Positions 1,606 to 49,339 of a DNA stretch of 64,000 nt are shown one piece after another (the first letter of the stretch is position 1; each line of letters opens with the position of its first letter). Made by a program: the position numbers and the translations under genes. Source of the stretch: Candidatus Kaiserbacteria bacterium (GTDB lineage Bacteria; Patescibacteriota; Minisyncoccia; Phycocordibacterales; UBA2100); NCBI GenBank assembly GCA_021413775.1, contig JAIOPS010000021.1, positions 5,014-69,013 on the forward strand. Direction: 5' to 3'. Under the pieces are notes generated by a model. That model did not search any database, was not told the origin of the DNA, and saw nothing but the letters and a program-made list of their open reading frames with translations.

Positions 1606-2724
1606 TCATTCTCCGGGAGGCGGGAGTGTAATGCTTTCGGGCTCGAAGACGACCTGTCGCTCGCCCTCTTCCACCTGCCCCACTTCAAGCAGGTCGTATC
1701 CCGCCGCACGGCCGAGCTCAAGAGTCTTGGTCACTTCGCTTCTCGGCAGAAATATATAGTATCCCACTCCCCAGTTGAACGTCTTCAGACAATCCTCGAG
1801 CGACACACCGATTGAGCGCATAAATTGCATAAGCGGAGGCACGTTCGTCCACGTGTGAATGCGGTATGTTGCGGGGCGATTATCGAATGCAATTTTCGAA
1901 ACACCGCTCCCGGTGCCGGGCAGAAGTGCATGAATGCCGACGCCGTTATCCAGCAGTGTCTCAACGAGATTCACGTAGGAGCGGGTCGGAATGAGCGTCT
2001 CTGCTCCGAGCGTAGTGCCACCCGGCAACTTCGTCATAAACTTTTCCGGCAACTCAAGCGCTTTCTTGATGACGAGTGAGATACCGTTGGCGTGTACGCC
2101 CGAGGACGCAACTCCGATAATGGCATCGCCGATTGCGAGATTCTTCCCGGTGATAAGACGTGATGTCGGTGCAATGATGGCCGTAACACAGCCGGACAGA
2201 GACGGCGCACTTTTGACCGGCGGCTCCGCTTTCACGAGATATTTCAATGCGGGTGATTCCCCCGCTGGTAGCGCCATGCCCGCCTCTTTGCAGACCTGCA
2301 GAAATCCGCGGGCGAGGTCCTCGGCTCGTTTCTCATCCGCAAACCACTCTGAATCCCCAGCTGCAACCTCGTCGGTATACACGACAGGCATCGCACCCTG
2401 CGCTATGACATCATTCACCGCCATGAGCGCGGCATCAATCGCGATTGCGTCGTAGTACGTCTTGCCCTCGCCCGAGAACTGGTACATCCATTCGGCTATC
2501 CAGTTCTTATTTCCGAGTCCCTCCTGCGTGTTGCACCACATATGCTTCTCGGTGCCGCGGTATTCGAAAACTCCGCCGTGTGCATGCAGAACATCGCTGT
2601 TGATGAACACGTCGCGTTTATTCGGGAACGTTATCGTCTGCCTTCCCGCCGCAATCATCGCGTGCTTGAAGGGTTCGATTTTCGTGTAATCTACTCCCGC
2701 TTGTGCGTACGCGCTTTTTTTCAT
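1606..2724 (-). CDS. purM: AIR synthetase-like (PurM family, archaeal/eukaryote-like sequence)
   Basis: 372 aa; N-terminal AGVDY motif; PurM-like N/C domain layout; sits between purE and purC in the operon. Confidence 0.7.
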
Positions 2725-3248
2725 ATGAGGTCGCTTTCCTCCAGATATTTTTTAAAGCCCTGCTCCTCCAATTTTTCCGCCTTCTTCAGTACCTCGTCGC
2801 GTATGGAATCTTTGTACGTACGGACTCTCTCCCCGACTGCGTCATCAAACGCGCCGATTATCTCCGCAGCAAGAATGCCGGCGTTCTTCGCACCATTGAT
2901 GGCCACCGTAGCCACAGGTACGCCCGGCGGCATCTGCACAATCGAGAGCAGTGAATCCATACCCTTGAGTGCTTTCGACTGAACAGGAACACCGATAACC
3001 GGGAGCGATGTCTGTGCGGCGACCATGCCGGGTAAATGCGCTGCGCCTCCTGCTCCCGCAATAATGACTTTGAGTCCTCGGCCGTGCGCCTCTTTTGCGT
3101 ACTCGACGAGCCTCTCGGGCGTGCGATGCGCGGAAACTATCGTCACTTCATTCGTGACACCGAGGTCATTCAGAATCGCCGCAGCATCCTGCATGACCGG
3201 CAAATCAGAATCCGAGCCCATGATGATACCTACGAGAGAAGTACTCAT
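2721..3248 (-). CDS. purE: N5-carboxyaminoimidazole ribonucleotide mutase
   Basis: 175 aa; [40 protein letters not shown] motifs typical of PurE. Confidence 0.9.
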
Positions 3249-3613
3249 ATAAAGTAACGCGTATCGTCATTCCTATCTATGAGGTCGTGTGCCTTTCTCA
3301 TTTCGTCGGGCGTGTAAATATATATAATTTCAAACTTGCCCGATGTTGTCCGATCGCTGTTGTGCACCACTTCAACCACATGTATCAGACCCCAATAAAT
3401 CCATTTTCCGTTCTTATTCTCGACCAGGAAATTCCGTACCGGCGGCGATTGGTAAACACGTATGTTCGGCTTGTTTGTAAACTCGAATACCCTTCCTGTA
3501 AAACTTTCTGCAGCATAGGGATTCAGGAGATGGCTCTCGATGTCCAACTCAGAAGGAAAACCCTGCTCTTTGGTTATTTGCAACGTATCGTTGATTTCTA
3601 TGAGACTTCCCAT
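3245..3613 (-). CDS. hypothetical protein (conspicuously lower-GC insert inside the pur operon)
   Basis: 122-aa ORF with 4-nt overlaps to purE and purK; AT-rich codon usage unlike its neighbours; no family recognised by eye. Confidence 0.4.
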
Positions 3614-3614
3614 A

Positions 3615-4715
3615 TCAGATAGTTATTATGTCTCTCGCTTTTAGAGCACTTCCTTTTGCCTGATCGAGCGTGTCGGCCACAGCTGTAATGTGCCCCATCT
3701 TTCGCTGTTTCCGAGTCTCCATCTTACCGTATATGTGAACTTTTACACCCGGTATTTTTTCCGCTTCCTCCACACCTTTCGGTTCGGCGGGTCCGTTACG
3801 TTCTCCGAGAATATTTATCATGACGGCGGCCGGCGCTGCCATCGCGGTATCGCCCAGAGGCATCCCTGTAATCGCACGGATATGCTGTTCAAATTGCGAT
3901 GTCACAGCCCCCTCAATCGTCCAATGGCCGGAATTGTGCACGCGCGGCGCAACCTCGTTGACTACGACCTCATCGCCCGACAAAAACATCTCTATCGCAA
4001 ATACCCCCGCTCCTTCAAATGAAGCGAGTACGGAGTGCGCCAGATGCTCGGCTTTATCCGCAATTTTTTTGTCGACTTGTGCGGGGGCGATGACGGTATC
4101 GCAGATATGGTCCTTGTGGATAGTCTCGACGACCGGATAGAGGCGAATTTCTCCCGAAGCCGTGCGTGCGGCAACGACTGCGAGCTCCTTATCGAATCTG
4201 ACGAAGCCCTCCGCATACGCCGGGACGTTTCCGATTTTTCCGAGTGCCTCCGCAAGAGCAGAAACGTCGGCAACCGTCGCATTGCCGCGACCGTCAAAAC
4301 CTCCCGAGCGAGCCTTGAGAACGTACGGGTATCCGAGGCTTTCCGCGTCCTGCGGTTCGCAAAACGGTGCGACCGCAATACCGTGTTCTTTGAGAAATTC
4401 CTTCTGGCGCAACTTATCTTTGATGATTGCGAGCGTGCGGGGTGTCGGATGGACAGGAAAACCTTCCACCGCCAGCTGCTGGAGCGCCTCGGCATTCACC
4501 GATTCTATTTCGTAGGTCAACACATCGGATTTCCCGGCAAGCGCGCGTATCATCGTCGCGTCCTTGTAGTCTCCTTCTATCTGTTCGTCCGAAACCTGAC
4601 CTGCCGGCCCGCGCGATTCAGGGTCGAGGGTGACGACTCTCAGACCGAGGCGATGCGCAGCATCCGCAAGCATCCGTCCGAGTTGTCCGCCGCCGGCGAT
4701 GCCCACTGTTTTCAT
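3615..4715 (-). CDS. purK: N5-CAIR synthetase (ATP-grasp)
   Basis: 366 aa; MKTVGIAGGGQLGRM N-terminus; ATP-grasp core; adjacent to purE. Confidence 0.85.
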   Translation of the reverse strand: MKTVGIAGGGQLGRMLADAAHRLGLRVVTLDPESRGPAGQVSDEQIEGDYKDATMIRALAGKSDVLTYEIESVNAEALQQLAVEGFPVHPTPRTLAIIKDKLRQKEFLKEHGIAVAPFCEPQDAESLGYPYVLKARSGGFDGRGNATVADVSALAEALGKIGNVPAYAEGFVRFDKELAVVAARTASGEIRLYPVVETIHKDHICDTVIAPAQVDKKIADKAEHLAHSVLASFEGAGVFAIEMFLSGDEVVVNEVAPRVHNSGHWTIEGAVTSQFEQHIRAITGMPLGDTAMAAPAAVMINILGERNGPAEPKGVEEAEKIPGVKVHIYGKMETRKQRKMGHITAVADTLDQAKGSALKARDIITI

Positions 4716-5242
4716 AGACGCGAAAGTATAAAATCCGCCCTCTCCGGTACCGGGAGAACCGGCACGGAAATAATGTCGTAGCCGAGTTCTGTATAGGCTG
4801 TGCGAATCGCCTCATGTATCTCCCGTGCCTGTTCGGGTGTCTCTGTCCGTGCTTCGTCCGCCTGAAAGTCGACGAGGTCGAGCAAGAAGACCGCCCGGTA
4901 CTTCGACGCATTGAGCATCTCTGTAAAGGCTTGGCGGATGGGTTCGTTATTCAGACGGAAGTAGGCGACAGAGTCCGGCACGCCGCGGTCGAAGAAAAAT
5001 GTCTCTTCAGGCGGCACTGCGCGTTCCATATTGTATTTGCGCTCCGCTATCCGGAAGAGCCAATCGTCGGTCGCACGAATCTGTTCGATAGTGAGACCCA
5101 GGGCCAGCTCCTCCTCGAAAAAGAGCCTCGCGGCCTCCGGAAGAATATTGTGCCCTCGCTTCTCCAATTCGTTCACAAGCGTTGTTTTACCCGCGCACGG
5201 ACCGCCCGTGAGTACGTACCAGGGCGGAGTTATTGCGTTCAT
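4712..5242 (-). CDS. P-loop NTPase, AAA_28-like (NadR-C-terminal/nucleoside-kinase-like ATPase)
   Basis: 176 aa; Walker A GGPCAGKTT near N-terminus; Walker-B-like FLLDLVD; 4-nt overlaps with purK and purQ, so clearly part of the pur transcription unit. Confidence 0.6.
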   Translation of the reverse strand: MNAITPPWYVLTGGPCAGKTTLVNELEKRGHNILPEAARLFFEEELALGLTIEQIRATDDWLFRIAERKYNMERAVPPEETFFFDRGVPDSVAYFRLNNEPIRQAFTEMLNASKYRAVFLLDLVDFQADEARTETPEQAREIHEAIRTAYTELGYDIISVPVLPVPERADFILSRL

Positions 5243-6015
5243 GAGAAGTACTCTACCGCATTTTTAAACATCGTAAGACCGGGACCATCTTTCGGTACAT
5301 CGGCACCGTCGCGCACGTACTCCTCGCGCAAGTACGTCCAATGCGGAAGTTCAGTGAAGCGTACTGCGCGCTCGGGATGCGGCATGAGCCCCAGGCAACG
5401 GCCGCCGTATCCGGTGATGCCTGCGATGTTCTCCATCGAACCGTTCGGATTCGCCGGTTGATTAAAATACTTCGCCGTCTCCCCCTCCACGTACCTGAGC
5501 GCAACGCCGTTCTGTGCTTTCAGTTCTGTGAAAACCTTCTCCGGCGCATAGTATTTGCCCTCTCCGTGCGCAATCGGCACGGACATCTCTGTTATTCCGC
5601 GAAGCCACGGGCTGTCATTTTGCACCTCGACGTCAACCCAGCGGCAGGTGTACCGGGCGTTGTCGTTGGCGATGAGCGCACCGGGCAAAATACCTGCGCT
5701 CGTGATGATTTGAAATCCGTTGCATACGCCGAGCATCAGCGTATCGCGGGAGAGGAACTTTTCGAGATGTTCTCCGAGATGCTGTGTGACGCGGTTGCCG
5801 TACGCTTTACCTGAGCCGGTGTCATCACCGTATGAAAATCCCCCCGGAAAAACAACGATGTGCGCCTGCGTCAGTATTTTCGGTCGCGCAATAACATCAT
5901 TGATGTGCACGACATCAGCGGTGCCTCCCGCTTTTTCAAATGCCGACTTTGTTTCGTCTTCCGTATTGAGTCCGTATCCGGAGAATATGAGTGCGTGCGG
6001 TTTCATACTTGCCAA
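5239..6015 (-). CDS. purQ: FGAM synthase, glutamine amidotransferase subunit
   Basis: 258 aa; GVCNGFQ catalytic Cys motif; ..MPHPER.. His/Glu motif; true start may be MKPH at 6006 to abut purL stop. Confidence 0.85.
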   Translation of the reverse strand: MASMKPHALIFSGYGLNTEDETKSAFEKAGGTADVVHINDVIARPKILTQAHIVVFPGGFSYGDDTGSGKAYGNRVTQHLGEHLEKFLSRDTLMLGVCNGFQIITSAGILPGALIANDNARYTCRWVDVEVQNDSPWLRGITEMSVPIAHGEGKYYAPEKVFTELKAQNGVALRYVEGETAKYFNQPANPNGSMENIAGITGYGGRCLGLMPHPERAVRFTELPHWTYLREEYVRDGADVPKDGPGLTMFKNAVEYFS

Positions 6016-8948
6016 TTCTTAAATGTTGAACGATGGCTCTCCGTAAGCCGCGCGACCGGCTCGTCTATGCGCTCTCCGGGTACATCCACGCGCAGAGTCC
6101 CCGTGTCCGTAACGTCGCCGATGCAGGTAAAGGAAAGTCCCTTGAACAATCGCTCGAACTTCTGCTCTTCGCCGGGGCGCACCGTGGCAAGCACTCGCCC
6201 CTGGCTTTCGGAAAAAAGAATGCTGTCGGCGGACTTTGCCTTGCCCGGAATCTTGCGGAGGTTCACGCGTGCGCCAAGCTGTCCGCCGATGGCGGACTTG
6301 GCGAGCGCTGCGGCCACGCCTCCTCGTCCCACCGGTGTTACGGAAGCAGGGTGCCCTGCCCGTATCGCGCGCGCGAGTGCCGTGTAGAGTCGTGCATTCT
6401 TTTTCGCGTGGACCTGCGGCACTGCACGACCGACGCCGGAGAGCAGCGAGAAGTATTCCGAGGCACCGAGCTCGTCGTCGGTGTCCCCCAGAAGGTAGAT
6501 GCGGTCACCCGGCATTTTAAAATCAACGGTCTGCGCGACCGAAGCATCATCCACGACTCCTATCGCGGAAATAAGCAACGTCGGCGGTGCCGCGATGTGA
6601 ATCGCCTCTCCTTTCGCGGTGTAGCCGCGGAAGTCGTTGAACATACTGTCTTTACCGGATATGTACGGCGTCCCGTATGCGACAGCCGTATCGTAGACGG
6701 CTTCAGCGGCTCTTTTCAATTCATACAATCGCTCCGGGGTGTTGGAGCTCGACCAGCAGAAGTTGTCGAGAATCGCCAGATACTCGAGCGAGGCTCCCGC
6801 GCACACCGCATTACGGACGGCGGTATCGATAGAGCACGCCGCCATGGCATACGTATCAACATCCGAGTACCAGGGCGCGAACCCGTGCGAGAGCACGACG
6901 CCTTTCTGCGAGCCGTGCACCGGCTGTATCACGCCCGCATCGACTCCCACGCGGCCCCGTCCCTGAAGCGGCTTTGTTACGGATGAACCCTGCACTTCGT
7001 GGTCGTACTGGGAGGAGATGAACGAGGTGGAGGCGATGTTCGGGCGCGCCAGGAGCTCATGAAGTACAGCACCGAGAGGTTTCGAGCGCGATGCTTTCGT
7101 GGGCTCCGTGTGACTTCTGACGGGCTTTCTGCTCTTCTGCACGCCGACAGGACGGCCGTCATGCAGGAAGTCCATATCGATATCCATTATTTTCCTGCCC
7201 TTGTATCTCACGACGCAGCGGTCGGAATCGGTGAACGTACCGATGACAGTCGCCTCGACATCGTGCCGGTCGAATATCTTTTTCAAGGTTTTCCAATTCT
7301 TTTTCGGAACCGCGAGCGTCATGCGCTCCTGCGATTCGGAAATCCAAATCTGCCACGGCGAAAGCCCGGGATATTTCAAGGGAACCTTCTCGATATCCAC
7401 AATGCAGCCGCCGCACTCCTTTGCCATTTCCGCTACCGAGCATGAGATACCGCCTGCGCCATTGTCGGTGATGCTCGAGTACAGGCCGGAATCCCGGGCT
7501 TCACGAACGATTGCATCCGACATCTTCTTTTGCGTAATGGGGTCTCCGATTTGCACGGCAGTCGCGGGAGAACCCGAGGAAAGCGACTCCGACGAGAACG
7601 TTGCACCGTGGATACCGTCGAGCCCGACCCGGCCTCCTGCCATAACCACATAGTCCCCCGCCTGTGCTTTTTTTGTGTAAAGTTTTCTGCCTTTGAGCGC
7701 ACGCGGAATGAGTCCGACCGTACCCGCGAAGACGAGCGGCTTGCCGCGGTAGCGCGAATCCACTGCAACGAAGCCGAGCGGCGTCGGAATACCGCTCTGA
7801 TTGCCGCCGTGATTGATACCCTTTACGACTCCCTCAAGAATGCGACGGGACGGCAGGAGCGGTTGCTGCTTTTGTTTATCACGATAGAGCTTCGTGGTGT
7901 CCACCGGATCCGCGACACAGAATCCGTACACGTTTGCAATCGGCTTTGCGCCCATTCCGAATCCGAGACAGTCGCGGTTCACGCCGACAATCCCGGTAAT
8001 TGCGCCTCCGAACGGGTCGAGCGCCGACGGAGAATTGTGTGTCTCCACCTTGTGCGTCACGAGGTACTGCTCATCGAACGCGATGCCGCCGGAATTGTCT
8101 TTGAAAACGGAGACACAGAAGTCCTTCTTTCCCTTTTGCTTGCGGATCTTTTCGGTAGCTCCTTTTATGTATTTGCGGTAAATGCCCTCACGCACCTCGT
8201 CGAGCGGGTCGGCAAAAATCGTATGCTTGCAGTGTTCGGACCACGTCTGGGCGAGAGATTCAATTTCGATGTCACGCGGATTTCTCCCCAACCCGCGGAA
8301 GTATTTCTGGATAACTTTCATGGATTCCAGCGAGAGTGCGAGCGGACCACGACGCGTCCCGTCTTTGTCCGCGATGCCGGACTTCCCGATAGCCGTCAAA
8401 GCCTCATCCGAAATGTCGAGGTTTACTTCGTCGGCCCGCTGCTCCTCGTGGAGTCGTACTTTCGGCACGGTGACGGGGATTCCTGTGCGCGCCGGAACCA
8501 CCGTCGCTCGCTCTATGAGCGGATTAAACAACTCCTGTGACATCGCCTCCGCCTCCTTCTGCGAAAGCGCGCCGCTGAAAAAAAGTACGAGCGAGCTGTA
8601 TACCGCCTCACCCTCCTTGAACACATAGCCCGTCGCATCTTCTATGGTTTCTTGCGCAGTCCGTCCTACGTTGTCGGTCACTCCGGGAAGAAATCCGATT
8701 TCAACAGTAAAGGCGGCGCCCGGTGGCACCGGTATTGTGCCGAGAGCGTACGCTTCAGTCGTCGGATTCGTGAAATGCTTTGCGGCTGTTTTCAAATTCG
8801 CCGCGCTGAGTTTTGCGTCCACGGTATACGCGGCGGCGATATGAACGCCGGTGAGTTTCGTTTTCGGGAAGAGGCCCGTGAGTGTCCGGAGAAAGCCTTT
8901 CGCGCGCGCGTCATCGACGGTTGAGAAGACGGTTATGCGCTCTGCCAT
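6003..8948 (-). CDS. purL: FGAM synthase large subunit with N-terminal PurS-like extension (purS-purL fusion)
   Basis: 981 aa, intermediate between small PurL (~740) and large PurL (~1300). N-terminal ~190 aa resembles PurS module(s). Body carries PurL AIRS-like repeats (SPSALDPFGGA, DNGAGG). Confidence 0.9.
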   Translation of the reverse strand: MAERITVFSTVDDARAKGFLRTLTGLFPKTKLTGVHIAAAYTVDAKLSAANLKTAAKHFTNPTTEAYALGTIPVPPGAAFTVEIGFLPGVTDNVGRTAQETIEDATGYVFKEGEAVYSSLVLFFSGALSQKEAEAMSQELFNPLIERATVVPARTGIPVTVPKVRLHEEQRADEVNLDISDEALTAIGKSGIADKDGTRRGPLALSLESMKVIQKYFRGLGRNPRDIEIESLAQTWSEHCKHTIFADPLDEVREGIYRKYIKGATEKIRKQKGKKDFCVSVFKDNSGGIAFDEQYLVTHKVETHNSPSALDPFGGAITGIVGVNRDCLGFGMGAKPIANVYGFCVADPVDTTKLYRDKQKQQPLLPSRRILEGVVKGINHGGNQSGIPTPLGFVAVDSRYRGKPLVFAGTVGLIPRALKGRKLYTKKAQAGDYVVMAGGRVGLDGIHGATFSSESLSSGSPATAVQIGDPITQKKMSDAIVREARDSGLYSSITDNGAGGISCSVAEMAKECGGCIVDIEKVPLKYPGLSPWQIWISESQERMTLAVPKKNWKTLKKIFDRHDVEATVIGTFTDSDRCVVRYKGRKIMDIDMDFLHDGRPVGVQKSRKPVRSHTEPTKASRSKPLGAVLHELLARPNIASTSFISSQYDHEVQGSSVTKPLQGRGRVGVDAGVIQPVHGSQKGVVLSHGFAPWYSDVDTYAMAACSIDTAVRNAVCAGASLEYLAILDNFCWSSSNTPERLYELKRAAEAVYDTAVAYGTPYISGKDSMFNDFRGYTAKGEAIHIAAPPTLLISAIGVVDDASVAQTVDFKMPGDRIYLLGDTDDELGASEYFSLLSGVGRAVPQVHAKKNARLYTALARAIRAGHPASVTPVGRGGVAAALAKSAIGGQLGARVNLRKIPGKAKSADSILFSESQGRVLATVRPGEEQKFERLFKGLSFTCIGDVTDTGTLRVDVPGERIDEPVARLTESHRSTFKNWQV

Positions 8949-9001
8949 GCGGGCATCATACCGCAGTCGCTAAATCAGCCAACTGTGGGTATATTTGCCC
9001 C

Positions 9002-10003
9002 ATGAAGAAAAAGGAGGGTTTGATACTCGGAGCATTACTTACGAAGCTCGCGCCCCGTCTCAAGGCAAAAGTACTCGTCGAGCCCGAATGGGGCGTCGTC
9101 GGGCAAATCACCTATGCGAACGGGAAGCGAAGGTATTTCCGATACAACACACTCGACCTCAATCCGGTCGGCGCGAGCGATGTCGCGAAGGATAAAGACT
9201 ACGCAGCATTTTTTATGCGGAAGCTCGGATACCCGGTCATCGAGGGGAAGACATTCTTTTCGCGGGAGTGGGCGAAAACAATCGGCTCGAAGCGGACCAT
9301 CGATGCGGGATTCGCGTACGCACAGACACTGGGATTCCCTGTTATCGTAAAACCCAACAGTGGAAGTCAGGGCACGGGAGTCGCGCTCGTGCACACAAAA
9401 AAAGACTTTTACTCCGCAGTGCGCAGAATACTCAGGAACGATAAGGTGGTGTTGGTTCAAAGACGCGTGGCCGGAAAAGACTACCGCATCGTTGTCCTCG
9501 ATGAGAAAGTAATCTCCGCATATGAGCGCACCCCACTTCAGATAACCGGCGACGGGCGTGCAACCATCTCGCAACTGCTCAGGAAAAAAGCCCGGGAATT
9601 CATCGCCGCAAGCCGCGACACGCAGCTTAAGCCGGATGATTCCCGCATCGCGGCCAAATTGAAGCGTCAAAAGCTGACCATGAAATCCGTTCCCGCAAAG
9701 GGCGAGAGCATCTACTTGCTCGATAATGCAAATCTTTCCACCGGCGGTGACTCACTCGATGTCACGGATAGTGTGCACCCCGGTTTCAAAAAACTCGCCG
9801 TTGCCCTTACGAAGGACATGGGACTGCGTCTGTGCGGCGTGGACATCATGACCGAGGGTGACATCACAAAGCCTCCCGTCAAGTGGCATATTCTGGAAAT
9901 TAACGCCGCTCCCGGCCTCGACCACTACGCACGGAGCGGCAAAGCGCAGGAGAAAATCGTCGAAGACCTGTACCTCAAAGTCCTCACGAGCCTCTCACGC
10001 TAG
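9002..10003 (+). CDS. ATP-grasp ligase, cyanophycin-synthetase-N-terminal/RimK-like
   Basis: ORF 8882..10003; start moved to MKKKEG at 9002. VIVKPNSGSQGTGVALV, ITGDGRATISQLL and WHILEINAAPGL motifs typical of ATP-grasp peptide ligases. Divergent from the purL operon start. Confidence 0.65.
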   Translation: MKKKEGLILGALLTKLAPRLKAKVLVEPEWGVVGQITYANGKRRYFRYNTLDLNPVGASDVAKDKDYAAFFMRKLGYPVIEGKTFFSREWAKTIGSKRTIDAGFAYAQTLGFPVIVKPNSGSQGTGVALVHTKKDFYSAVRRILRNDKVVLVQRRVAGKDYRIVVLDEKVISAYERTPLQITGDGRATISQLLRKKAREFIAASRDTQLKPDDSRIAAKLKRQKLTMKSVPAKGESIYLLDNANLSTGGDSLDVTDSVHPGFKKLAVALTKDMGLRLCGVDIMTEGDITKPPVKWHILEINAAPGLDHYARSGKAQEKIVEDLYLKVLTSLSR

Positions 10004-10500
10004 CGTTCCAGGTCAATCCAATGATACGTGATGCCGTTCCAATCGCGCTGCTCGTCGGCGAGTACCCTCGTGAATTCAGTTTCGTATGCGGGAAAGTATG
10101 TGTCCCCCTCCGCCGTCGCATCAATACGCGTGAGACACAGGCGCGTAGTATACGGAAGCGCCGCTTCATAAATCTGCGCTCCGCCGCCGATTGATATCCA
10201 TTCAGAATCAATGACCTTTGCTTTCTCCAGGGCCTCTTCGACGGAAGCCGCCGTGATGACACCGTCGTACGACCACGAAGTATCACGCGTGACGACAATG
10301 TTCGTCCTTCCGGGGAGCGGCTTCCCCAGGTAGCCGACAATGGATTCGAATGTTTTCCTGCCGAGGATAATGGGGTGTCCGGCGGTTACATCCCGGAAAC
10401 GCTTAAGGTCATCAGGAATATGCCACAGAAGCTTGTTCTCCTTACCGAGAACTCTATCTCTGCCGATTGCGGCTATGGCTGCGACGACGGGAGAACTCAT
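10000..10500 (-). CDS. folA: dihydrofolate reductase
   Basis: ORF 10000..10758; start at internal Met (MSSPVVAAIAAIGRDRVLGKENKLLWHIPDDLKRF...) at 10500. Classic DHFR N-terminal motif and ~167 aa size. Confidence 0.8.
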   Translation of the reverse strand: MSSPVVAAIAAIGRDRVLGKENKLLWHIPDDLKRFRDVTAGHPIILGRKTFESIVGYLGKPLPGRTNIVVTRDTSWSYDGVITAASVEEALEKAKVIDSEWISIGGGAQIYEAALPYTTRLCLTRIDATAEGDTYFPAYETEFTRVLADEQRDWNGITYHWIDLER

Positions 10501-10578
10501 CCGAAAACAATACCACAACCCATTTCCCACTAGCCTGCAATCGCGACGCTGAAAGGCGTCGGGATATAATGCCCGAAC

Positions 10579-11253
10579 ATGCAGAATTACGAAGTCGAAA
10601 TAAAAGCGCTCCTGGGCACACCTGAAAAGGCCGATGCCATCAGGAGTGCGCTTAAGAAAATCGACCCGTCCTGCGAAATACTGTCGCGCAACAAACAACT
10701 CAACCATTACTTCACCGGCGGTTCGCTTGAGAACCTCGTAGAAGTCGTACGTACGCACCTCACGCCGGAGGCCGCGTCGCGGCTCGACTCGATGGCTGCA
10801 AACGCGAAAGAGTATTCCGTGCGCACACGCGACAAAGACGGACAGGTGCTCCTCGTCGTCAAAGTTTCCGTGGGTTCTGACACAAGCTCAAACGGTGTCG
10901 CGCGTATGGAGTTCGAAGAATGGGTCCAGCTCACGCTTGAGGAGCTGGATGCTCTCGTACTGACTGCGGGATTTACGTATCAGGCGAAATGGTCCCGGGA
11001 GAGAGAAGAGTACGTGTGCAACGGCACAAACATTACGCTCGACAAAAACGCCGGATACGGCTGGCTGGCGGAATTTGAACGCGTTGTCGACGATGAAAGC
11101 AAGGTCGCGGGCGCACGGGCGGATATCGAATCGCTGATGCAGACGGTCGGCGCGAAGGAGCTGCCGCAGGACAGGCTTGAGCGCATGTTCACCTTCTACA
11201 ACGCCCACTGGCCCGAGTACTATGGGACCGAAAAAATATTCATAGTAGAATGA
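10579..11253 (+). CDS. CYTH-domain protein (triphosphate tunnel metalloenzyme; CyaB/ThTPase-like)
   Basis: 224 aa beginning MQNYEVEIKAL (EXEXK-like signature of CYTH). Ends 6 nt before dcd start. Confidence 0.5.
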   Translation: MQNYEVEIKALLGTPEKADAIRSALKKIDPSCEILSRNKQLNHYFTGGSLENLVEVVRTHLTPEAASRLDSMAANAKEYSVRTRDKDGQVLLVVKVSVGSDTSSNGVARMEFEEWVQLTLEELDALVLTAGFTYQAKWSREREEYVCNGTNITLDKNAGYGWLAEFERVVDDESKVAGARADIESLMQTVGAKELPQDRLERMFTFYNAHWPEYYGTEKIFIVE

Positions 11254-11259
11254 CCCTCT

Positions 11260-11829
11260 ATGTTTTTATCCGACATCGACATTAAGAAAGCGGTTGAAGA
11301 GGGCCATATCGTGCTCGAGCCTTTCGACGAGACCCGGCTCCAGCCCGTTTCGTACGACATCCTTCTCGGAAATAAATTTATCGAGAATGACGCGAGCGCG
11401 ACACACTTCGTGGATCCGTCGCGAAAAATCTTCGCAAAAACGCACGAGACCGTCGTCAAAGACGGCGAAGAGTTCGTCCTCCACCCCGGAGTTTCTGTCC
11501 TCGGCCTCTCCAAGGAGTTTTTCGGTTCGGACCACTACCTCATACAGGTCGGCGGCAAGTCCTCCCTCGCGCGCTGCGGACTCATGATTCACAACACGGC
11601 GGGCATCATCAATCCGGGACATTTCCTGCATATCACTTTTGAAATAACGAATCAGAACAACATCCCGATAATTCTCCGTCCGGGCATGGAAATCGCACAG
11701 ATAACGTTCTCGATGATATCGAGCCCCCCGAAACAGAACTACAAGAAAACCGGGCGCTTTGCGAAGGACAACTGGAAACACTTCGTGAGTGCGAAAGCAA
11801 AAAAAGCCAAGAAGCCCGCTAAGAAATAA
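11260..11829 (+). CDS. dcd: dCTP deaminase
   Basis: 189 aa; SYDILLG, GxxSSLARxG and dUTPase-like fold motifs; immediately followed by thyA. Confidence 0.85.
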   Translation: MFLSDIDIKKAVEEGHIVLEPFDETRLQPVSYDILLGNKFIENDASATHFVDPSRKIFAKTHETVVKDGEEFVLHPGVSVLGLSKEFFGSDHYLIQVGGKSSLARCGLMIHNTAGIINPGHFLHITFEITNQNNIPIILRPGMEIAQITFSMISSPPKQNYKKTGRFAKDNWKHFVSAKAKKAKKPAKK

Positions 11830-11833
11830 ACGT

Positions 11834-12796
11834 ATGAATTCCCGTCACCCCGAAATGCAGTACATGGACCTGATGCGGGAAACGCTCGCGGGCGAAGAGC
11901 AGGTGGATAAGGGTACGGGAGTGAAAACGTACAGCGTATTCGGGCGACAGATCCGCTTCGACCTGTCGCAGGGCTTGCCGGTTCTCACCACAAAAAAAGT
12001 GTACTGGAACGGAGTCCTGCACGAGCTGTACTGGTTCCTCTCCGGTCAGTCGAACATCAAATACCTCGTCGACCACAATGTGCACATTTGGGACGACTAC
12101 CCGTATAAGATTTACAGCGAAAAGGCGGAGAAAGAGAAATGGCCGCCGATGACGAAAGATGAGTTCATCGGAAAGATTAAAGACGACGACGCATTCGCCG
12201 CAGCTCACGGTGAACTCCCTCACATCTACGGAGAGTCGTGGCGACGCTGGCCCGCCGAAGACGGCCGGACCGTGGACCAGCTCGGCTGGGCGATTGAAGA
12301 ACTCCGGAAAGACCCCGATGCGCATAACACGCTCGTGTCATCCTGGAATCCGCCATACCTCTATTCAATGGCAAAAAAGGGACAGGGTGCGCGCTTCCCC
12401 ATCTGCCACAATATGTACCAAATAAATATCAAGCACGGCAAAGTGTGTTTGCAGCTCTACCAGCGCTCAGCGGATGTCTTTCTCGGGGTTCCCTTCAATA
12501 TCGCGAGCTACGCGCTTCTCACCGCAATTATTGCGAAAATTCTCGGGCGCGAGCCGGGCGAGTTCATCCATACATTCGGCGACCTGCACATCTACGAGAA
12601 CCACCGTGCGCAGGCCGAAGAGCAGCTCGCCCGCGAACCGCTTCCGTTCCCCACCGTTTCGTTCAACCGCGATTTTGACTCACTCGACTCGTTCAAACCC
12701 GAATACGTCGAACTGAACGGATACACGGCCCATCCTCCCATCAAAGCGGAGCTCACCGTCGCCGGGGGCTACAACAAAGACTTACACGGCGTATGA
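11834..12796 (+). CDS. thyA: thymidylate synthase (ThyA, with insertion)
   Basis: ORF 11789..12796; start at ATG 11834 just after dcd stop. Motifs RFPICHNMYQ, QLYQRSADVFLGVPFNIASYALLT. Confidence 0.9.
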   Translation: MNSRHPEMQYMDLMRETLAGEEQVDKGTGVKTYSVFGRQIRFDLSQGLPVLTTKKVYWNGVLHELYWFLSGQSNIKYLVDHNVHIWDDYPYKIYSEKAEKEKWPPMTKDEFIGKIKDDDAFAAAHGELPHIYGESWRRWPAEDGRTVDQLGWAIEELRKDPDAHNTLVSSWNPPYLYSMAKKGQGARFPICHNMYQINIKHGKVCLQLYQRSADVFLGVPFNIASYALLTAIIAKILGREPGEFIHTFGDLHIYENHRAQAEEQLAREPLPFPTVSFNRDFDSLDSFKPEYVELNGYTAHPPIKAELTVAGGYNKDLHGV

Positions 12797-12838
12797 TATA
12801 ACCTCACTATCAATGCATTATCAAAATCATTTTTTATT

Positions 12839-14107
12839 ATGGAACTCTACCCTCACATAAAGAAGCAGGACAAGAAAGTGTACGACGCGATACAGGGCGA
12901 GGAAAAGCGCCAGGCGGAGGGACTTGAACTCATACCCTCTGAAAACTACGTCTCGCGTGCGGTCCGTGAGGCAAACGCCTCCTCGCTCACAAACAAGTAC
13001 TCCGAAGGATACCCAGGCAAGCGTTATTACGGCGGGCAGGAATATACGGACGAAGTGGAGGTGTTCGCCATCGAGCGCGCGAAAAAGCTTTTCGGTGCGA
13101 AGTACGCCAACGTCCAACCGCACGCAGGCGCCCCCGCGAATGTCGGCATGTACTTCGCGCTGCTCGAGCCGGGAGACACCGTTCTGGGCATGGACCTCTC
13201 GCACGGCGGTCACCTCACCCATGGACACCCCGTGACCTACCTCACAAAAATCTTCAATTTCGTCCGCTATAAGATGAAGAATATTGAAACCGGCGAAATT
13301 GATTACGACGAGATGCTGAAAGTCGCGAAGAAATCAAAGCCGAAAATCGTCCTCGCCGGCTACTCTGCGTATCCCCGTGAACTCGACTATGCGAAGTTCG
13401 TTTCGATTGCCCGGGAAGTCGGCGCGTACGCCGTAATGGACATCGCGCACATCGCAGGTCTCATCGCCGGCAAAGCGGTGAAGAATCCGTTCGATTACGG
13501 CTTCGACATCATGACGACAACGACCCACAAAACTCTCCGCGGACCTCGCGGCGGCATGATACTCACGCGCGAAGACGCCGATTTCGCGAAGAAAATAGAC
13601 AAATCAATCTTCCCCGGTCTTCAGGGAGGACCCTTGATGCACAACATCGCCGCAAAGGCAGTATGTTTCGGCGAAGCGTTGAATCCGAAGTTCCGTACCT
13701 ACGCGAAACAGATTCTCAAAAATGCCAAGGCCATGGAGAAGGTCTTCAAGGCCGCCGATATCCGCATGATTACGGGCGGCACATCGAACCATCTCATTCT
13801 TGCGGATGTGTACGGCTCACTCGGTATCTCCGGCAAAGAAGCCGAGACCCTGCTCGACGAGGTCGGAATAACGCTCAATAAGAATTCCATCGCCGACGAT
13901 GTGCGCGGACCGATGGACCCGTCGGGCATCCGTTTCGGCACGCCCGCCATCACGACACGCGGCTTCAAAGAAAAGGAGTCGGTCCGCGTCGCAGAACTCA
14001 TGATTGAGACACTCAAGAACAAAAGTGATAAGAAGAAGCACCGGGCGGCGCGTGAAGAAATCCGTAAGATGTGCAAGAAGTTCCCGATTCCTGAATCGTT
14101 CGTCTAG
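12839..14107 (+). CDS. glyA: serine hydroxymethyltransferase
   Basis: 422 aa; ELIPSENY, GYPGKRYYGG, TTTTHKTLRGPRGG (PLP lysine) motifs. Confidence 0.95.
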   Translation: MELYPHIKKQDKKVYDAIQGEEKRQAEGLELIPSENYVSRAVREANASSLTNKYSEGYPGKRYYGGQEYTDEVEVFAIERAKKLFGAKYANVQPHAGAPANVGMYFALLEPGDTVLGMDLSHGGHLTHGHPVTYLTKIFNFVRYKMKNIETGEIDYDEMLKVAKKSKPKIVLAGYSAYPRELDYAKFVSIAREVGAYAVMDIAHIAGLIAGKAVKNPFDYGFDIMTTTTHKTLRGPRGGMILTREDADFAKKIDKSIFPGLQGGPLMHNIAAKAVCFGEALNPKFRTYAKQILKNAKAMEKVFKAADIRMITGGTSNHLILADVYGSLGISGKEAETLLDEVGITLNKNSIADDVRGPMDPSGIRFGTPAITTRGFKEKESVRVAELMIETLKNKSDKKKHRAAREEIRKMCKKFPIPESFV

Positions 14108-46947: not shown

Positions 46948-49299
46948 TTAAATTATCTCGCACGTACCTCCCGCACACGCCAATTCCTTTTTCTGTTCGG
47001 TCTCGTCAGTTCTTTCGTAGATGACGAGCTTCGAGTAGTCTATCTTCGGGAATTTTGCTGCAAGCTCCTCATACTTCTTTTTATCAATCGCTTCGTATGG
47101 AGCGAGACGGTAGACGTGATTTTCGCGCGGCAAGAATGAGAGACCGCCGATGATGTCCCAATTGTCCGATATCCACGCGACACACTGCACCCACTCTTCT
47201 TCGCCCACCGAAATGGTCGCCGACGGATTGTGTTCGGTAAAGTTGAGCTTCACCATCTTCCAATACTCGAGCTGCTGAATCGCGGAAAGGTCGTTCTTGA
47301 AGACCGAGCCCGAAGGTGCTTTCACCGGGAACTCAAGCACGTATGTGGATGCCTCGCCTTCCACCTGTCCTACTTCCGGGTATGCCTGTACACCCTGGTC
47401 GCGCATCATTTTGAAGAGCGAATCGGTTGCCGAGATGCGGACGCGGCGGATGTAGTACTGCGAGTGGCGCGGGTGAATGCCGGACGAGCAGTTGAATGTC
47501 TGAGATACGGTGCCGGACGGCTTTACGCAGGTGATGGAGCTCGACATCGGAATACCGAAGCGCTTCGCGTACAGAGCATTTGTCTTTTTCGCTGTTTCGC
47601 GCATTTTCTTCATCATCTTCGCATCGCGCACAACAGGAGAATCCCACTGGCCGGTGATGGACACGCCGAGAAGGCGCTCGGCTTCACAGTTGTCGGTCCA
47701 TTCCTTGGAGATGTAATTGAACTTCACGAGAGTCGACTGGTAGGTGCCGAGGAGTGTCGCGAGCTTCGCCTTGCGGAGCAACGACTTCTCGGTGTCATCC
47801 GCGCGCGCAATGACTTCCGAGAGGTTGCAGAACTGCTTCGACTGGAGGATGATTTCGCCGCACGGATTCGTTCCGACCTGGCCGATGAAATTACCCTTCT
47901 TTCCGTACTTCTTCTGAAGAAGCTTCAAACGTCGCTCAGGCATTGTCTTTTCGAGGCTTCCGCGGTTGAAGATGCCGCGCTCTCCGGTGCCGGATTTCAT
48001 GAGCGCGACCCACTCGTCCATGAGCTCGGCGTTGGTGGGCTTGGTCTCATAGACGGCGGAGTTGTTGGCAACGGAGCGCCACGGGTCTGTGAGGTAGAAT
48101 TGCCCTTTCTTAGCGTCGCGGATTTCCACATCGTCGAGGTCAGAAAGAGAAATCATCGCCGTGCGGCGCACTCCTCCCGCGACGACGCATTCACCGATTT
48201 TGCAGATGATATCGTGTGCATCAATGTTGCGCAGGCGTCTGCCCTGTCGGCGGAGAATTCTTTCACGCGCGAATGTGAGGAGTGAACGGAGCGGTTCCGG
48301 GCCGGATGCTTTACCGCCCATCGTCTTGAGTCTCGCACCAGCGGGACGAATAGTTGAGAAATCGAAATCGACATCTTTGCCCGCATACCAGGTGTTGAGC
48401 CCGAGCGTGAGCGCATCACACCAGCCCTCCTTGGTGTCAGCGACGACATGCAACGGAATCTTTTCGCCTGTCTGCTTTTCGATTTGCGGAAGCTGCTGAA
48501 TGTTCTGGCTTTCAACCGCGTATCCGACACCGCATCCCTGCATCGAGAGGTACATGATTTCCGCAAAATCCTGCAATTTTACCGGAGCGGTAAACGAGCA
48601 GTTGTAGAAACATGTGTTGCACTTCTTGGCGGGCGCTCCGGCGAATTGCATCGCGCGCATCGACGGCATGACTTCCTGTTTCAAAATCGCTTCGCGGATT
48701 TCCGCGTACTCTTTTTTCGTGAGTTTGTCCCCGAGATTCTCTTTCATAAATCCGACATAACGGTCGACGGTCTCAATCCACGTCTCACGGCGCTGTTCGC
48801 TTTCTACCCAGCGCGCATAGGTGCGGAGATAAACGAACTCTCCGAGAGGATTGTTCTTGAAGTACTGTTTCGATTCTTCCGCGAGCTTCCGGACGTGCTC
48901 CGGTACAGAGCCCTGCTCCTCGCGGATCTTGTTGTGCTCCGCACGGTAGAGGATGTAGTTCTTGGATGCCGACACATAGTCGGAGAGCATGAGCTGGCGC
49001 TCCACCTCGTCCTGGCAGCCTTCGACGGTGGGGAGAAAGTTCTTGTACGTCTTGGCGATGCGCATCATTTCGCCGGCGACTTTGTGCGCCACGACCACCG
49101 CCTCATCTTCCGAGCCCTCATTCGAGGCGAGCATCGCTTTTTGAATAGCGCGCGTAATCTTATCGAACTCAAACGGTACGATGCGACCATCGCGCTTCTG
49201 TATATTCGGCAAGTACTTTTTGTACACGCGATTTGCTGACGCTTCCTGAGAGACTCCTATAATGCCCGCTTTTTTGCGAGAGGTGGTTGACTGTGCCAT
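46948..49299 (-). CDS. nrdJ: class II (adenosylcobalamin-type) ribonucleotide reductase with N-terminal ATP-cone
   Basis: ORF 46948..49305 (TTG); first ATG at 49299 gives MAQSTTS. ATP-cone IQKRDGRIVPFEFDKITRAI; class II NPCGEI motif; C-terminal Cys pair (CAGGTCEII). Confidence 0.85.
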   Translation of the reverse strand: MAQSTTSRKKAGIIGVSQEASANRVYKKYLPNIQKRDGRIVPFEFDKITRAIQKAMLASNEGSEDEAVVVAHKVAGEMMRIAKTYKNFLPTVEGCQDEVERQLMLSDYVSASKNYILYRAEHNKIREEQGSVPEHVRKLAEESKQYFKNNPLGEFVYLRTYARWVESEQRRETWIETVDRYVGFMKENLGDKLTKKEYAEIREAILKQEVMPSMRAMQFAGAPAKKCNTCFYNCSFTAPVKLQDFAEIMYLSMQGCGVGYAVESQNIQQLPQIEKQTGEKIPLHVVADTKEGWCDALTLGLNTWYAGKDVDFDFSTIRPAGARLKTMGGKASGPEPLRSLLTFARERILRRQGRRLRNIDAHDIICKIGECVVAGGVRRTAMISLSDLDDVEIRDAKKGQFYLTDPWRSVANNSAVYETKPTNAELMDEWVALMKSGTGERGIFNRGSLEKTMPERRLKLLQKKYGKKGNFIGQVGTNPCGEIILQSKQFCNLSEVIARADDTEKSLLRKAKLATLLGTYQSTLVKFNYISKEWTDNCEAERLLGVSITGQWDSPVVRDAKMMKKMRETAKKTNALYAKRFGIPMSSSITCVKPSGTVSQTFNCSSGIHPRHSQYYIRRVRISATDSLFKMMRDQGVQAYPEVGQVEGEASTYVLEFPVKAPSGSVFKNDLSAIQQLEYWKMVKLNFTEHNPSATISVGEEEWVQCVAWISDNWDIIGGLSFLPRENHVYRLAPYEAIDKKKYEELAAKFPKIDYSKLVIYERTDETEQKKELACAGGTCEII

Positions 49300-49339
49300 G
49301 CGCAAGAACTTTAACTTCTAATCACTAGCTCACTACTAA

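What the first reader, a model, noticed from the sequence alone, without database searches (positions are those of the whole stretch)
10579..14107. CYTH triphosphatase gene embedded in a CYTH-dcd-thyA-glyA run: candidate surrogate dUTP/dNTP triphosphatase in dTMP synthesis
A CYTH-domain (triphosphate tunnel metalloenzyme) ORF ends 6 nt before dcd, which ends 4 nt before thyA, followed 42 nt later by glyA; folA is divergent. A TATAAT box ends 8 nt before the CYTH ATG (leaderless-type). dCTP deaminase produces dUTP (or dUMP if bifunctional) for ThyA; no dut gene is in this window. Tight coupling of a generic triphosphatase with dcd/thyA suggests it may hydrolyse dUTP to dUMP (or act on another nucleoside triphosphate in this pathway). 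That would be a non-canonical pathway arrangement, but it is inference only.
Basis: inference. Interest (0 to 1): 0.6.

Follow-up and report, generated by a model that had tools for sequence, protein, structure and literature searches.

The report
CYTH triphosphatase standing in for dUTPase
In a Kaiserbacteria (candidate phyla radiation) genome, a triphosphate-tunnel (CYTH) enzyme is the first gene of a conserved thymidylate operon, in a slot that related genomes fill with a dUTPase, so it probably removes the dUTP made by the neighbouring dCTP deaminase, which would be a new job for this enzyme family.

Summary
The layout is folA(-) | CYTH-dcd-thyA-glyA(+), with a TATAAT box 8 nt before the CYTH ATG, and no dut was found in the 64 kb window.

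The interpretation passed every computational test I could run:
- **Linkage.** The CYTH-dcd pair is conserved in 138 of 157 related Patescibacteria loci. The usual gap is 1-12 nt, and the operon start looks leaderless in 70 of 79 loci.
- **Dcd.** Every linked Dcd keeps its deaminase residues but carries Asn in place of the superfamily's hydrolytic Asp. It should therefore release dUTP rather than dUMP.
- **Slot replacement.** Where CYTH is missing next to such a Dcd, 8 of 11 clusters carry an intact dUTPase-type gene. Five of these hold a Dcd paralog (Asp kept, deaminase Glu lost) exactly in the CYTH slot. None of 102 CYTH-bearing clusters has an intact dUTPase-type gene.

Caveats:
- The CYTH motifs are those of a terminal-phosphate TTM triphosphatase, not a class IV cyclase. 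One-step dUTP to dUMP + PPi is therefore not the predicted chemistry.
- I could not check that dut is absent from the whole genome.
- There is no biochemistry for this protein.

Verdict: a well-supported candidate for non-orthologous replacement of dUTPase, not reported in the searched literature.

The parts
10565..10570 (+). -10 box (TATAAT) of a leaderless-type promoter for the CYTH-dcd-thyA-glyA operon
   Evidence: The hexamer ends 8 nt before the ATG at 10579, with no Shine-Dalgarno sequence. A TANNNT hexamer ends 4-11 nt before the CYTH start in 70 of 79 related loci, against a 7.8% background. The generic two-hexamer promoter scan did not call it.
10579..11253 (+). CYTH / triphosphate tunnel metalloenzyme, 224 aa; first cistron; candidate dUTP-hydrolysing partner of Dcd
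11260..11829 (+). dCTP deaminase with Asn118 in place of the superfamily's hydrolytic Asp; Lys-rich C-terminal tail
   Evidence: TIGR02274 scores 142 bits. The closest PDB relative is M. tuberculosis Dcd:dut. The motif 'IINPGH' replaces 'IDPG', while S102, R105 and E128 are kept.
11834..12796 (+). thymidylate synthase ThyA (start may instead be 11855)
   Evidence: Pfam Thymidylat_synt at 297 bits and TIGR03284 at 335 bits. The alternative start comes from the Logan gene call.
12839..14107 (+). serine hydroxymethyltransferase GlyA
   Evidence: Pfam SHMT at 500 bits.
10000..10500 (-). dihydrofolate reductase FolA, divergently transcribed from the same 78-nt intergenic region
   Evidence: Pfam DHFR_1 at 157 bits. 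The gene call in L001 agrees. The divergent position is conserved in nearly all loci.

Best explanation
The CYTH protein is an active triphosphate-tunnel phosphohydrolase. In this Paceibacteria/Kaiserbacteria lineage it has taken over the dUTP-removing, dUMP-supplying step of thymidylate synthesis.

The proposed pathway runs as follows. The operon is transcribed as a leaderless mRNA that starts at the CYTH ATG. The class II ribonucleotide reductase elsewhere in the window is the likely, unverified source of dCTP. Dcd deaminates dCTP to dUTP but cannot hydrolyse it, because its hydrolytic Asp is Asn. CYTH, translationally coupled just upstream, hydrolyses dUTP. ThyA methylates the resulting dUMP, and GlyA and FolA recycle the folate.

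Shown here:
- gene order and its conservation;
- intact CYTH catalytic residues;
- the Asp-to-Asn change in Dcd;
- occupation of the same operon slot by dUTPase-type genes in relatives.

Inferred:
- that dUTP is the substrate;
- the route to dUMP.

The signature motifs predict terminal-phosphate cleavage, that is dUTP to dUDP + Pi. dUMP would then need a second hydrolysis, or reversal of thymidylate kinase (my own speculation). Direct PPi release would need the nucleotide to bind in the reversed, cyclase-like orientation.
For: 1. **Linkage.** CYTH sits next to an Asn-type dcd in 138 of 157 loci from two independent samples. One sample was seeded with CYTH in GTDB genomes. The other was seeded with Dcd in JGI metagenomes. 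About 60 of 77 CYTH-to-dcd gaps are 1-12 nt.

2. **Dcd.** Window Dcd has N118 where E. coli Dut has D90, M. tuberculosis Dut D83, M. tuberculosis Dcd:dut D119 and E. coli Dcd D128. The deaminase residues S102, R105 and E128 are kept, and Asn holds in every linked Dcd. D83N makes M. tuberculosis Dut practically inactive (relative efficiency 0.0002) without affecting binding (PMC5519681).

3. **Slot replacement.**
   - In L103, L107, L109, L110 and L120 (and partially L162), a 187-aa Dcd paralog lies 2 nt upstream of the Asn-type dcd, exactly where CYTH sits elsewhere.
   - That paralog keeps the Asp and has Gly for the deaminase Glu. It scores Pfam DCD 98 bits and 77 bits to NCBIfam PRK02253 (archaeal-type dUTPase), which is below that model's curated cut-off of 130.
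   - L130, L137, L148 and L155 have a full-length canonical Dut and no CYTH was found (upstream of dcd in L148 is almost unsampled).
   - Intact dUTPase-type genes occur in 0 of 102 CYTH clusters that reach glyA, against 8 of 11 CYTH-less clusters (Fisher p = 3e-10).
   - A neighbour-joining tree of Dcd needs about 10 state changes, so this is not a single-lineage effect.

4. **Degenerate Dut relics.** The only Dut-like genes found together with CYTH (L080, L127, L133) lack motif V. Each also has a substitution in motif III: the catalytic Asp is replaced in two (Asp to Val, Asp to Asn) and the adjacent conserved Tyr in the third (Tyr to Asn).

5. **Related clusters without CYTH-dcd.** Other Paceibacterota thymidylate clusters carry dut next to glyA, and L096/L097 also carry a dCMP deaminase.

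6. **The enzyme is under selection.** All catalytic residues, plus family-specific residues (NHYF, KWS, DKNAGYG, the C-terminal RLERMFxxYNxxWxxYYGT), are invariant or nearly so across 129 sequences at 46-74% identity.

7. **No dUTPase in the window.** None of the roughly 57 window ORFs scanned matched dUTPase, MazG or Nudix.
Against: - **Chemistry.** The three diagnostic motifs of Vogt et al. 2021 place the protein with terminal-phosphate TTM triphosphatases. There is no HF before ExExK, the xRxR motif is S80-x-R82-x-R84 with both arginines, and beta8 carries E165-x-E167. SaTTM, the top Foldseek hit in the PDB, prefers PPPi and makes NDP from NTP. Direct dUMP + PPi formation is therefore not the default expectation.
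- **Other pyrophosphatases co-occur.** MazG-domain genes (L032, L053, L057) and Nudix genes (L009, L023) sit in the same operon as CYTH in a few Adlerbacteria-type loci. They could be the real dUTP pyrophosphatases there.
- **Some clusters have neither.** Three CYTH-less Asn-Dcd clusters (L119, L134, L136) show no dUTPase nearby, so an unlinked enzyme can evidently serve.
- **The whole genome is unseen.** Only 64 kb of this genome, and at most 16 kb of each relative, could be inspected, so dut may lie elsewhere.
- **Distant family members are not linked.** P0215, P0200 and P0127 are not next to dcd.
- **Literature.** No report of a CYTH enzyme hydrolysing dUTP turned up in the searched library.
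Confidence: 0.55

Rival explanations
1. CYTH is a generic inorganic tri- or pyrophosphatase, or a broad NTP gamma-phosphatase like SaTTM, NeuTTM or YgiF. It is co-transcribed with the thymidylate genes without acting on dUTP. dUMP is then made by an unlinked Dut, MazG or Nudix enzyme, or by residual activity of Dcd.
For: - The signature motifs and the nearest structures are those of PPPi-preferring TTMs.
- MazG and Nudix genes co-occur with CYTH in five loci.
- Three CYTH-less Asn-Dcd clusters have no dUTPase nearby, which shows that unlinked solutions exist.
Against: - This does not explain why CYTH and intact dUTPase-type genes exclude each other (0 of 102 against 8 of 11), or why a dUTPase-like Dcd paralog occupies precisely the CYTH slot.
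- It does not explain the strict coupling to an Asp-to-Asn Dcd.
- The invariant aromatic and polar family-specific residues, and the conserved C-terminal extension, suggest an organic moiety is recognised rather than bare PPPi. This last point is inference.
Confidence: 0.2
2. CYTH acts on a different triphosphate of the pathway. Candidates are trimming of dCTP or dTTP to balance pools around the dTTP-regulated Dcd, or dephosphorylation of 7,8-dihydroneopterin triphosphate for folate synthesis next to folA.
For: - folA is the divergent neighbour.
- folP and folK lie between folA and CYTH in one locus (L010), and a CofE-like gene lies near folA in about 10 of the first 80 loci.
- A distant homolog (P0169) follows DHFR directly, with no dcd on its 6.9-kb contig.
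- Another distant homolog (P0127) lies near a class I ribonucleotide reductase.
Against: - folP and folK were seen in only 1 of 80 loci, so de novo folate synthesis is not a constant companion.
- The constant and translationally coupled partner is dcd, not folA.
- The link to Dcd recurs in an unrelated context: P0242, at 30% identity, is followed 48 nt later by a different Dcd type.
- The replacement pattern specifically involves dUTPases.
Confidence: 0.12
3. It is a class IV (CyaB-type) adenylate cyclase that makes a cyclic-nucleotide signal, as JGI annotates many family members.
For: - JGI names such as 'adenylate cyclase class IV' are attached to family members.
- There is a weak TIGR00318 hit of 25 bits against a cut-off of 58.
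Against: All three AC-IV determinants fail:
- there is no HFxxxxExExK, since only four residues precede E5;
- the first Arg of xRxR is kept;
- beta8 has ExE, not ExA.

SaTTM, the top Foldseek hit in the PDB, makes no cyclic nucleotide.
Confidence: 0.02

Closest known systems
SaTTM (Saci_0718) and the archaeal PH1819/PH1012 group of CYTH triphosphatases (SSN cluster 3 of Vogt et al. 2021)
   Different: - Sequence identity is only about 17-26%.
- The window protein is about 45 aa longer. It has an inserted helical segment (about residues 50-75) and a conserved C-terminal extension, RLERMFxxYNxxWxxYYGT.
- Its family-specific invariant residues (NHYF, KWS, DKNAGYG) set it apart.
- It is bacterial (Patescibacteria) and locked into a dcd-thyA operon.
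- Its predicted physiological substrate is a deoxypyrimidine triphosphate rather than PPPi.
[quoted passage not shown]
   Same: The predicted pathway role is the same: disposing of dUTP and supplying dUMP between Dcd and ThyA. The operon slot is also the same as that of dUTPase-type genes in sister lineages. Functionally, the CYTH + Asn-Dcd pair resembles a bifunctional Dcd:dut split between two proteins.
   Different: The fold is unrelated: a beta-barrel tunnel rather than a jelly-roll trimer. None of the Dut motifs I-V is present, and the expected regiochemistry differs (gamma rather than alpha-beta cleavage). This is analogy, not homology.
Class IV adenylate cyclase (CyaB, YpAC-IV)
   Same: It shares the CYTH fold, and this is the annotation commonly given to family members.
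   Different: The HF motif, the Arg-to-small substitution and the ExA motif that define AC-IV are all absent.
MazG / all-alpha NTP pyrophosphohydrolases acting as dUTPases (e.g. DR2231, dimeric dUTPases)
   Same: These are another precedent for an unrelated fold doing dUTP clearance in dut-less organisms (PMC5122711). MazG-domain genes appear sporadically in the same operon.
   Different: The fold and the chemistry both differ. MazG genes co-occur with CYTH rather than replacing it.

Membership tests
CYTH / triphosphate tunnel metalloenzyme superfamily (PF01928) | N-terminal ExExK metal- and substrate-binding motif | tested here: met
   E5-V-E7-I-K9 in the window protein. The three residues are invariant in 129 dcd-linked homologs.
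CYTH / triphosphate tunnel metalloenzyme superfamily (PF01928) | Eight-stranded beta-barrel tunnel fold | tested here: met
CYTH / triphosphate tunnel metalloenzyme superfamily (PF01928) | Opposed basic (Arg/Lys) and acidic (Glu) tunnel residues | tested here: met
   R82, R84, K95, R109, K137, R140 and R142, together with E111, E113, E165 and E167, are conserved.
TTM-type triphosphatase (as opposed to cyclase), criteria of Vogt et al. 2021 | Both arginines of the xRxR motif and both glutamates of the beta8 ExE motif are present; a small residue precedes RxR | tested here: met
   S80-V-R82-T-R84 aligns to SaTTM A-L-R-L-R. E165-F-E167 aligns to SaTTM and PH1819 E-I-E.
TTM-type triphosphatase | Hydrolysis of the terminal phosphate of a triphosphate substrate | not testable with these tools
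   This needs an enzyme assay. It is predicted here only from motifs.
Class IV adenylate cyclase (CyaB-like) | HFxxxxExExK extension for base stacking | tested here: not met
   Only M-Q-N-Y precedes E5, and no His-Phe is present.
Class IV adenylate cyclase (CyaB-like) | The second Glu of the beta8 ExE is replaced by Ala, and the first Arg of xRxR is replaced by a small residue | tested here: not met
   The window protein has E167 and R82. The AC-IV structures 2aca and 2fjt show E-F-A and E-I-A at the aligned positions. TIGR00318 scores only 25 bits against a cut-off of 58.
Thiamine triphosphatase | An aromatic W/Y two residues before RxR (W/YxRxR) | tested here: not met
   That position is Ser80, invariant in 129 homologs.
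Homotrimeric dUTPase (Dut) superfamily | Sequence or fold homology with motifs I-V | tested here: not met
   The CYTH protein has no Pfam or NCBIfam dUTPase hit. It is proposed as a functional analog only.
dCTP deaminase (the neighbour gene, TIGR02274) | Deaminase catalytic Ser, Arg and Glu (E. coli S111, R115, E138) | tested here: met
   S102, R105 and E128 are present. TIGR02274 scores 142 bits against a cut-off of 92.8.
Bifunctional dCTP deaminase:dUTPase (dUMP-forming) | Motif-III Asp homologous to the catalytic Asp of dUTPases (M. tuberculosis D119, E. coli Dut D90) | tested here: not met
   The position is Asn118 in the window Dcd, and Asn in every one of the roughly 150 linked Dcds whose motif could be read. 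The effect of D-to-N is known for Dut. For Dcd:dut it is inferred by homology.

The most novel reading that the evidence does not exclude
This CYTH clade is a previously unrecognised, structurally unrelated class of dUTP hydrolase that has displaced Dut in hundreds of Patescibacteria species. It works as the obligate partner of a deaminase-only (Asp-to-Asn) Dcd.

If the motif-predicted gamma-cleavage holds, the route to dUMP would be new: dUTP to dUDP + Pi, followed by a second hydrolysis or by Tmk reversal, rather than the universal dUTP to dUMP + PPi.
Probability: 0.45. Interest if true: 0.8.

Novelty: new variant of a known kind. Interest (0 to 1): 0.72.

Why it matters
dUTP hydrolysis is considered near-universal, both for keeping uracil out of DNA and for making dUMP. 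Many genomes nevertheless lack any recognisable dUTPase ('Life without dUTPase', PMC5122711).

A triphosphate-tunnel enzyme filling that gap would:
- add a new fold to the short list of dUTPase solutions;
- give the large, mostly function-less CYTH family a concrete metabolic role;
- correct the widespread 'class IV adenylate cyclase' annotation of these proteins;
- improve metabolic reconstructions of candidate phyla radiation bacteria.

The Asn-type Dcd and its alternative partners (CYTH, a dUTPase-only Dcd paralog, canonical Dut) also form a natural experiment on how a bifunctional enzyme activity is split and reassigned.

Tried and rejected
- **Whole-genome dut search.** This was not possible. 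I tried to approach the question through Dut-like queries. These showed that canonical Dut exists in some Paceibacterota, but they could not be tied to the same genomes.
- **Fusions of CYTH to other domains.** The longer family members only carry insertions or mis-called starts.
- **Phage origin.** Two IMG/VR scans found one homolog (L088). Its catalytic residues are degenerate and it sits in an RNA-repair context, so it is not informative.
- **Folate-biosynthesis role (dihydroneopterin triphosphate).** folP and folK lie near CYTH in only 1 of 80 loci.
- **Adenylate cyclase reading.** Rejected on motifs.
- **Literature.** No paper in the held library links CYTH to dCTP deaminase or dUTPase. 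The Johansson 2005 JBC paper on determinants of mono- versus bifunctionality in Dcd was not held, so that point rests on my own knowledge plus PMC5519681.
- **CYTH-Dcd complex.** I did not attempt a prediction, because the structure tool takes single window proteins only.


Full report
**1. What is in the window**

| Gene | Coordinates | Notes |
|---|---|---|
| folA | 10000-10500 (-) | divergent |
| CYTH | 10579-11253 (+) | 224 aa |
| dcd | 11260-11829 (+) | 6-nt gap |
| thyA | 11834-12796 (+) | 4-nt gap; start may be 11855 as in the Logan gene call, giving 25 nt |
| glyA | 12839-14107 (+) | 42-nt gap |

Pfam and NCBIfam confirm all five identities. TATAAT lies at 10565-10570, 8 nt before the CYTH ATG, and there is no Shine-Dalgarno sequence.

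An identical CYTH protein is named in NCBI as coming from a Candidatus Kaiserbacteria bacterium. Elsewhere the window holds a purine-synthesis cluster, a class II ribonucleotide reductase with an ATP cone (46948-49305, -) and housekeeping genes. None of the roughly 57 ORFs scanned matches dUTPase, MazG or Nudix.

**2. The CYTH protein**

It carries ExExK (E5, E7, K9) and the full set of basic and acidic tunnel residues. The AlphaFold2 model is confident (pLDDT 94.2).
- The Foldseek top hit is the Sulfolobus triphosphatase SaTTM.

The family is narrow. Only 249 representatives at 50% clustering appear among 1.84 billion proteins. There are 3824 proteins at 90% clustering and 474 GTDB species genomes, essentially all Patescibacteria/Paceibacterota.

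Vogt et al. 2021 (PMC8233210) give three motifs that separate CYTH activities. The window protein reads as follows:
- There is no HF before ExExK.
- It has Ser-x-Arg-x-Arg, that is a small residue with both arginines kept.
- It has Glu-x-Glu on beta8.

It is therefore a TTM-type triphosphatase, not a class IV adenylate cyclase and not a thiamine triphosphatase. SaTTM hydrolyses the terminal phosphate, prefers PPPi, and turns NTP into NDP.

In 129 dcd-linked homologs at 46-74% identity, every catalytic residue is invariant or nearly so. So are a set of family-specific residues: N42-H-Y-F45, K137-W-S, D155-K-N-A-G-Y-G161 and a C-terminal RLERMFxxYNxxWxxYYGT. The enzyme is clearly under selection. 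The extra conserved aromatic residues suggest that an organic group is recognised, but that is inference.

**3. Synteny**

Eighty species-level genome loci were fetched through CYTH. They show folA(-) | CYTH-dcd-thyA-glyA wherever the contig extends.
- About 60 of 77 CYTH-to-dcd gaps are 1-12 nt, and most dcd-to-thyA gaps are 1-12 nt.
- A -10-like hexamer ends 4-11 nt before the CYTH ATG in 70 of 79 loci, against 7.8% at random positions, and no Shine-Dalgarno sequence is present. The leaderless reading is therefore conserved.
- Sporadic additions to the operon are tmk, a HAD hydrolase, a MazG-domain gene and a Nudix gene.

**4. The Dcd**

Its closest solved relative is the bifunctional M. tuberculosis Dcd:dut, at 116 bits against 75 bits for E. 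coli Dcd.

The motif-III Asp is Asn118 here. That Asp is the catalytic residue that positions the hydrolytic water in dUTPases (E. coli Dut D90, M. tuberculosis Dut D83). It is also present in every characterised Dcd and Dcd:dut I could align. Asn holds in every linked Dcd of both samples, while the deaminase Ser, Arg and Glu are kept.

D83N makes M. tuberculosis Dut practically inactive without affecting binding (PMC5519681). By homology, these Dcds should deaminate dCTP but not hydrolyse the product, so dUTP needs another enzyme.

**5. The decisive comparison**

A second, independent sample of 80 metagenome loci was seeded with the Asn-type Dcd. Pooled with the first sample and the window, this gives 157 loci.

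| Configuration | Loci | dUTPase-type genes in the cluster |
|---|---|---|
| CYTH adjacent to dcd | 138 (102 reach glyA) | No intact Dut or Dcd paralog in the 102. Three carry a truncated Dut-like gene lacking motif V, each also with a motif-III substitution (L080 Asp to Val, L133 Asp to Asn, L127 Tyr to Asn) |
| No CYTH, at least 750 nt upstream available | 13 (11 reach glyA) | 8 of 11 hold an intact dUTPase-type gene |

The eight break down as follows:
- **Five** (L103, L107, L109, L110, L120) hold a 187-aa Dcd paralog 2 nt upstream of dcd, exactly in the CYTH slot. A partial sixth case is L162, which falls outside the 11.
- **Three** (L130, L137, L155) hold a full-length canonical Dut. A fourth is L148, whose upstream region is almost unsampled and which also falls outside the 11.

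The paralog keeps the Asp and has Gly for the deaminase Glu ('TDPGYTGQLTFGLTN'). It matches Pfam DCD at 98 bits and the archaeal-type dUTPase model PRK02253 at 77 bits, which is below that model's curated cut-off of 130.

Fisher's exact test on 0 of 102 against 8 of 11 gives p = 3e-10. A neighbour-joining tree of Dcd interleaves the states and needs about 10 changes, so this is not one lineage effect. The tree is rough, however, and the test is not phylogenetically corrected.

More distant Paceibacterota clusters without CYTH-dcd carry dut next to glyA, and L096/L097 also carry a dCMP deaminase.

**6. Interpretation**

The slot upstream of a deaminase-only Dcd is filled either by a dUTPase-type protein or by CYTH. 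The simplest reading is that CYTH provides the dUTP-hydrolysing function.

What remains open is the chemistry:
- The motifs predict gamma-cleavage (dUTP to dUDP + Pi). dUMP would then need a second step.
- One option is reversal of Tmk, which lies inside the operon in 13 of the first 80 loci and elsewhere in the fetched locus in several more. This is my speculation.
- Alternatively, dUTP could bind in the opposite orientation and release PPi.

**7. Evidence against, and limits**

- MazG and Nudix genes co-occur with CYTH in five loci.
- Three CYTH-less clusters have no nearby dUTPase.
- Distant family members (30-46% identity) are mostly not dcd-linked. One at 30% identity is again followed by a Dcd, of a different type.
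- Only fragments of each genome were visible, so an unlinked dut cannot be excluded.
- No paper in the held library links CYTH to dUTP or Dcd.

**8. Verdict**

This is a new predicted role for a known enzyme family. It is worth biochemical testing.

Noticed in passing
L103:3435-3994, L107:3435-3998, L109:1850-2413, L110:3435-3998, L120:3435-3998 (metagenome loci): A 187-aa Dcd paralog keeps the hydrolytic Asp but has Gly in place of the deaminase Glu. It sits 2 nt upstream of an Asn-type Dcd. Together the two look like a bifunctional Dcd:dut split into a dUTPase-only and a deaminase-only paralog.
   Followed up: partly
L080:9596-9994, L127:2907-3299, L133:6310-6699, L089:8001-8396: A small family of about 130-aa Dut-like proteins in Paceibacterota (61 proteins) lacks motif V and has a degenerate motif II. 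Copies that coexist with CYTH also have substitutions in motif III (the catalytic Asp in two, the adjacent Tyr in one). Its function is unclear. In CP060228.1 it sits between tmk and glyA, two genes downstream of a 134-aa ORF with a sub-threshold PRA-PH (MazG-superfamily) match.
   Followed up: partly
window 11785-11829 (C-terminus of Dcd): Dcd ends in a Lys-rich tail (SAKAKKAKKPAKK) that is present in nearly all Asn-type Dcds. Dcd has pI 9.2, against 4.9 for the CYTH protein. This might point to an electrostatic complex, or it may mean nothing.
   Followed up: no
window 8999-10003 (+): A RimK/D-Ala-D-Ala-ligase-like ATP-grasp gene lies between purL and folA. It recurs in the same place in about 15 related loci. 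Its substrate is unknown.
   Followed up: no
L016:3805-4596, L018, L042, L044, L063, L009, L065, L080, L075, L082 and many L1xx loci: A CofE / F420-0:gamma-glutamyl-ligase-family gene recurs next to folA in these CPR clusters. It also lies next to the most distant CYTH homolog found, P0268. A folate-related role seems possible.
   Followed up: no
window 46948-49305 (-): A class II (B12-dependent) ribonucleotide reductase with an N-terminal ATP cone. It is the likely source of the deoxycytidine nucleotides that feed Dcd.
   Followed up: no
window 1606-8948 (-): A purine de novo cluster (purM-like, purE, purK, an AAA_28 gene, purQ, purL). This is a notable biosynthetic capacity for a CPR genome. 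An AAA_28 gene also sits next to glyA-dut in other Paceibacterota (L092).
   Followed up: no
L084:99-3807: A distant CYTH homolog (35% identity, 'FSPGYG' subfamily) directly follows DHFR. Nearby are a Nudix gene and a gene with the HMUDK_hel domain, the helical domain of 5-hydroxymethyl-dU DNA kinases (my own knowledge of the Pfam family). This hints at thymidine hypermodification.
   Followed up: no
L088:663-1337 (IMG/VR contig): The only viral homolog (42% identity) has lost most catalytic residues. It sits with an HNH endonuclease, an AAA ATPase, a Fic protein, and ORFs I judged by eye to be an RNA ligase and a polynucleotide kinase.
   Followed up: partly
family-wide (P0011, P0014, P0015 and others): JGI annotates many members as 'adenylate cyclase class IV' or 'predicted adenylyl cyclase CyaB'. 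The diagnostic motifs contradict this annotation.
   Followed up: yes
window 11834 vs 11855: The thyA start is ambiguous. ATG 11834 gives a 4-nt gap to dcd. ATG 11855 (MQYMDLM...) aligns better with the Pfam model start and was chosen by the Logan gene caller.
   Followed up: partly
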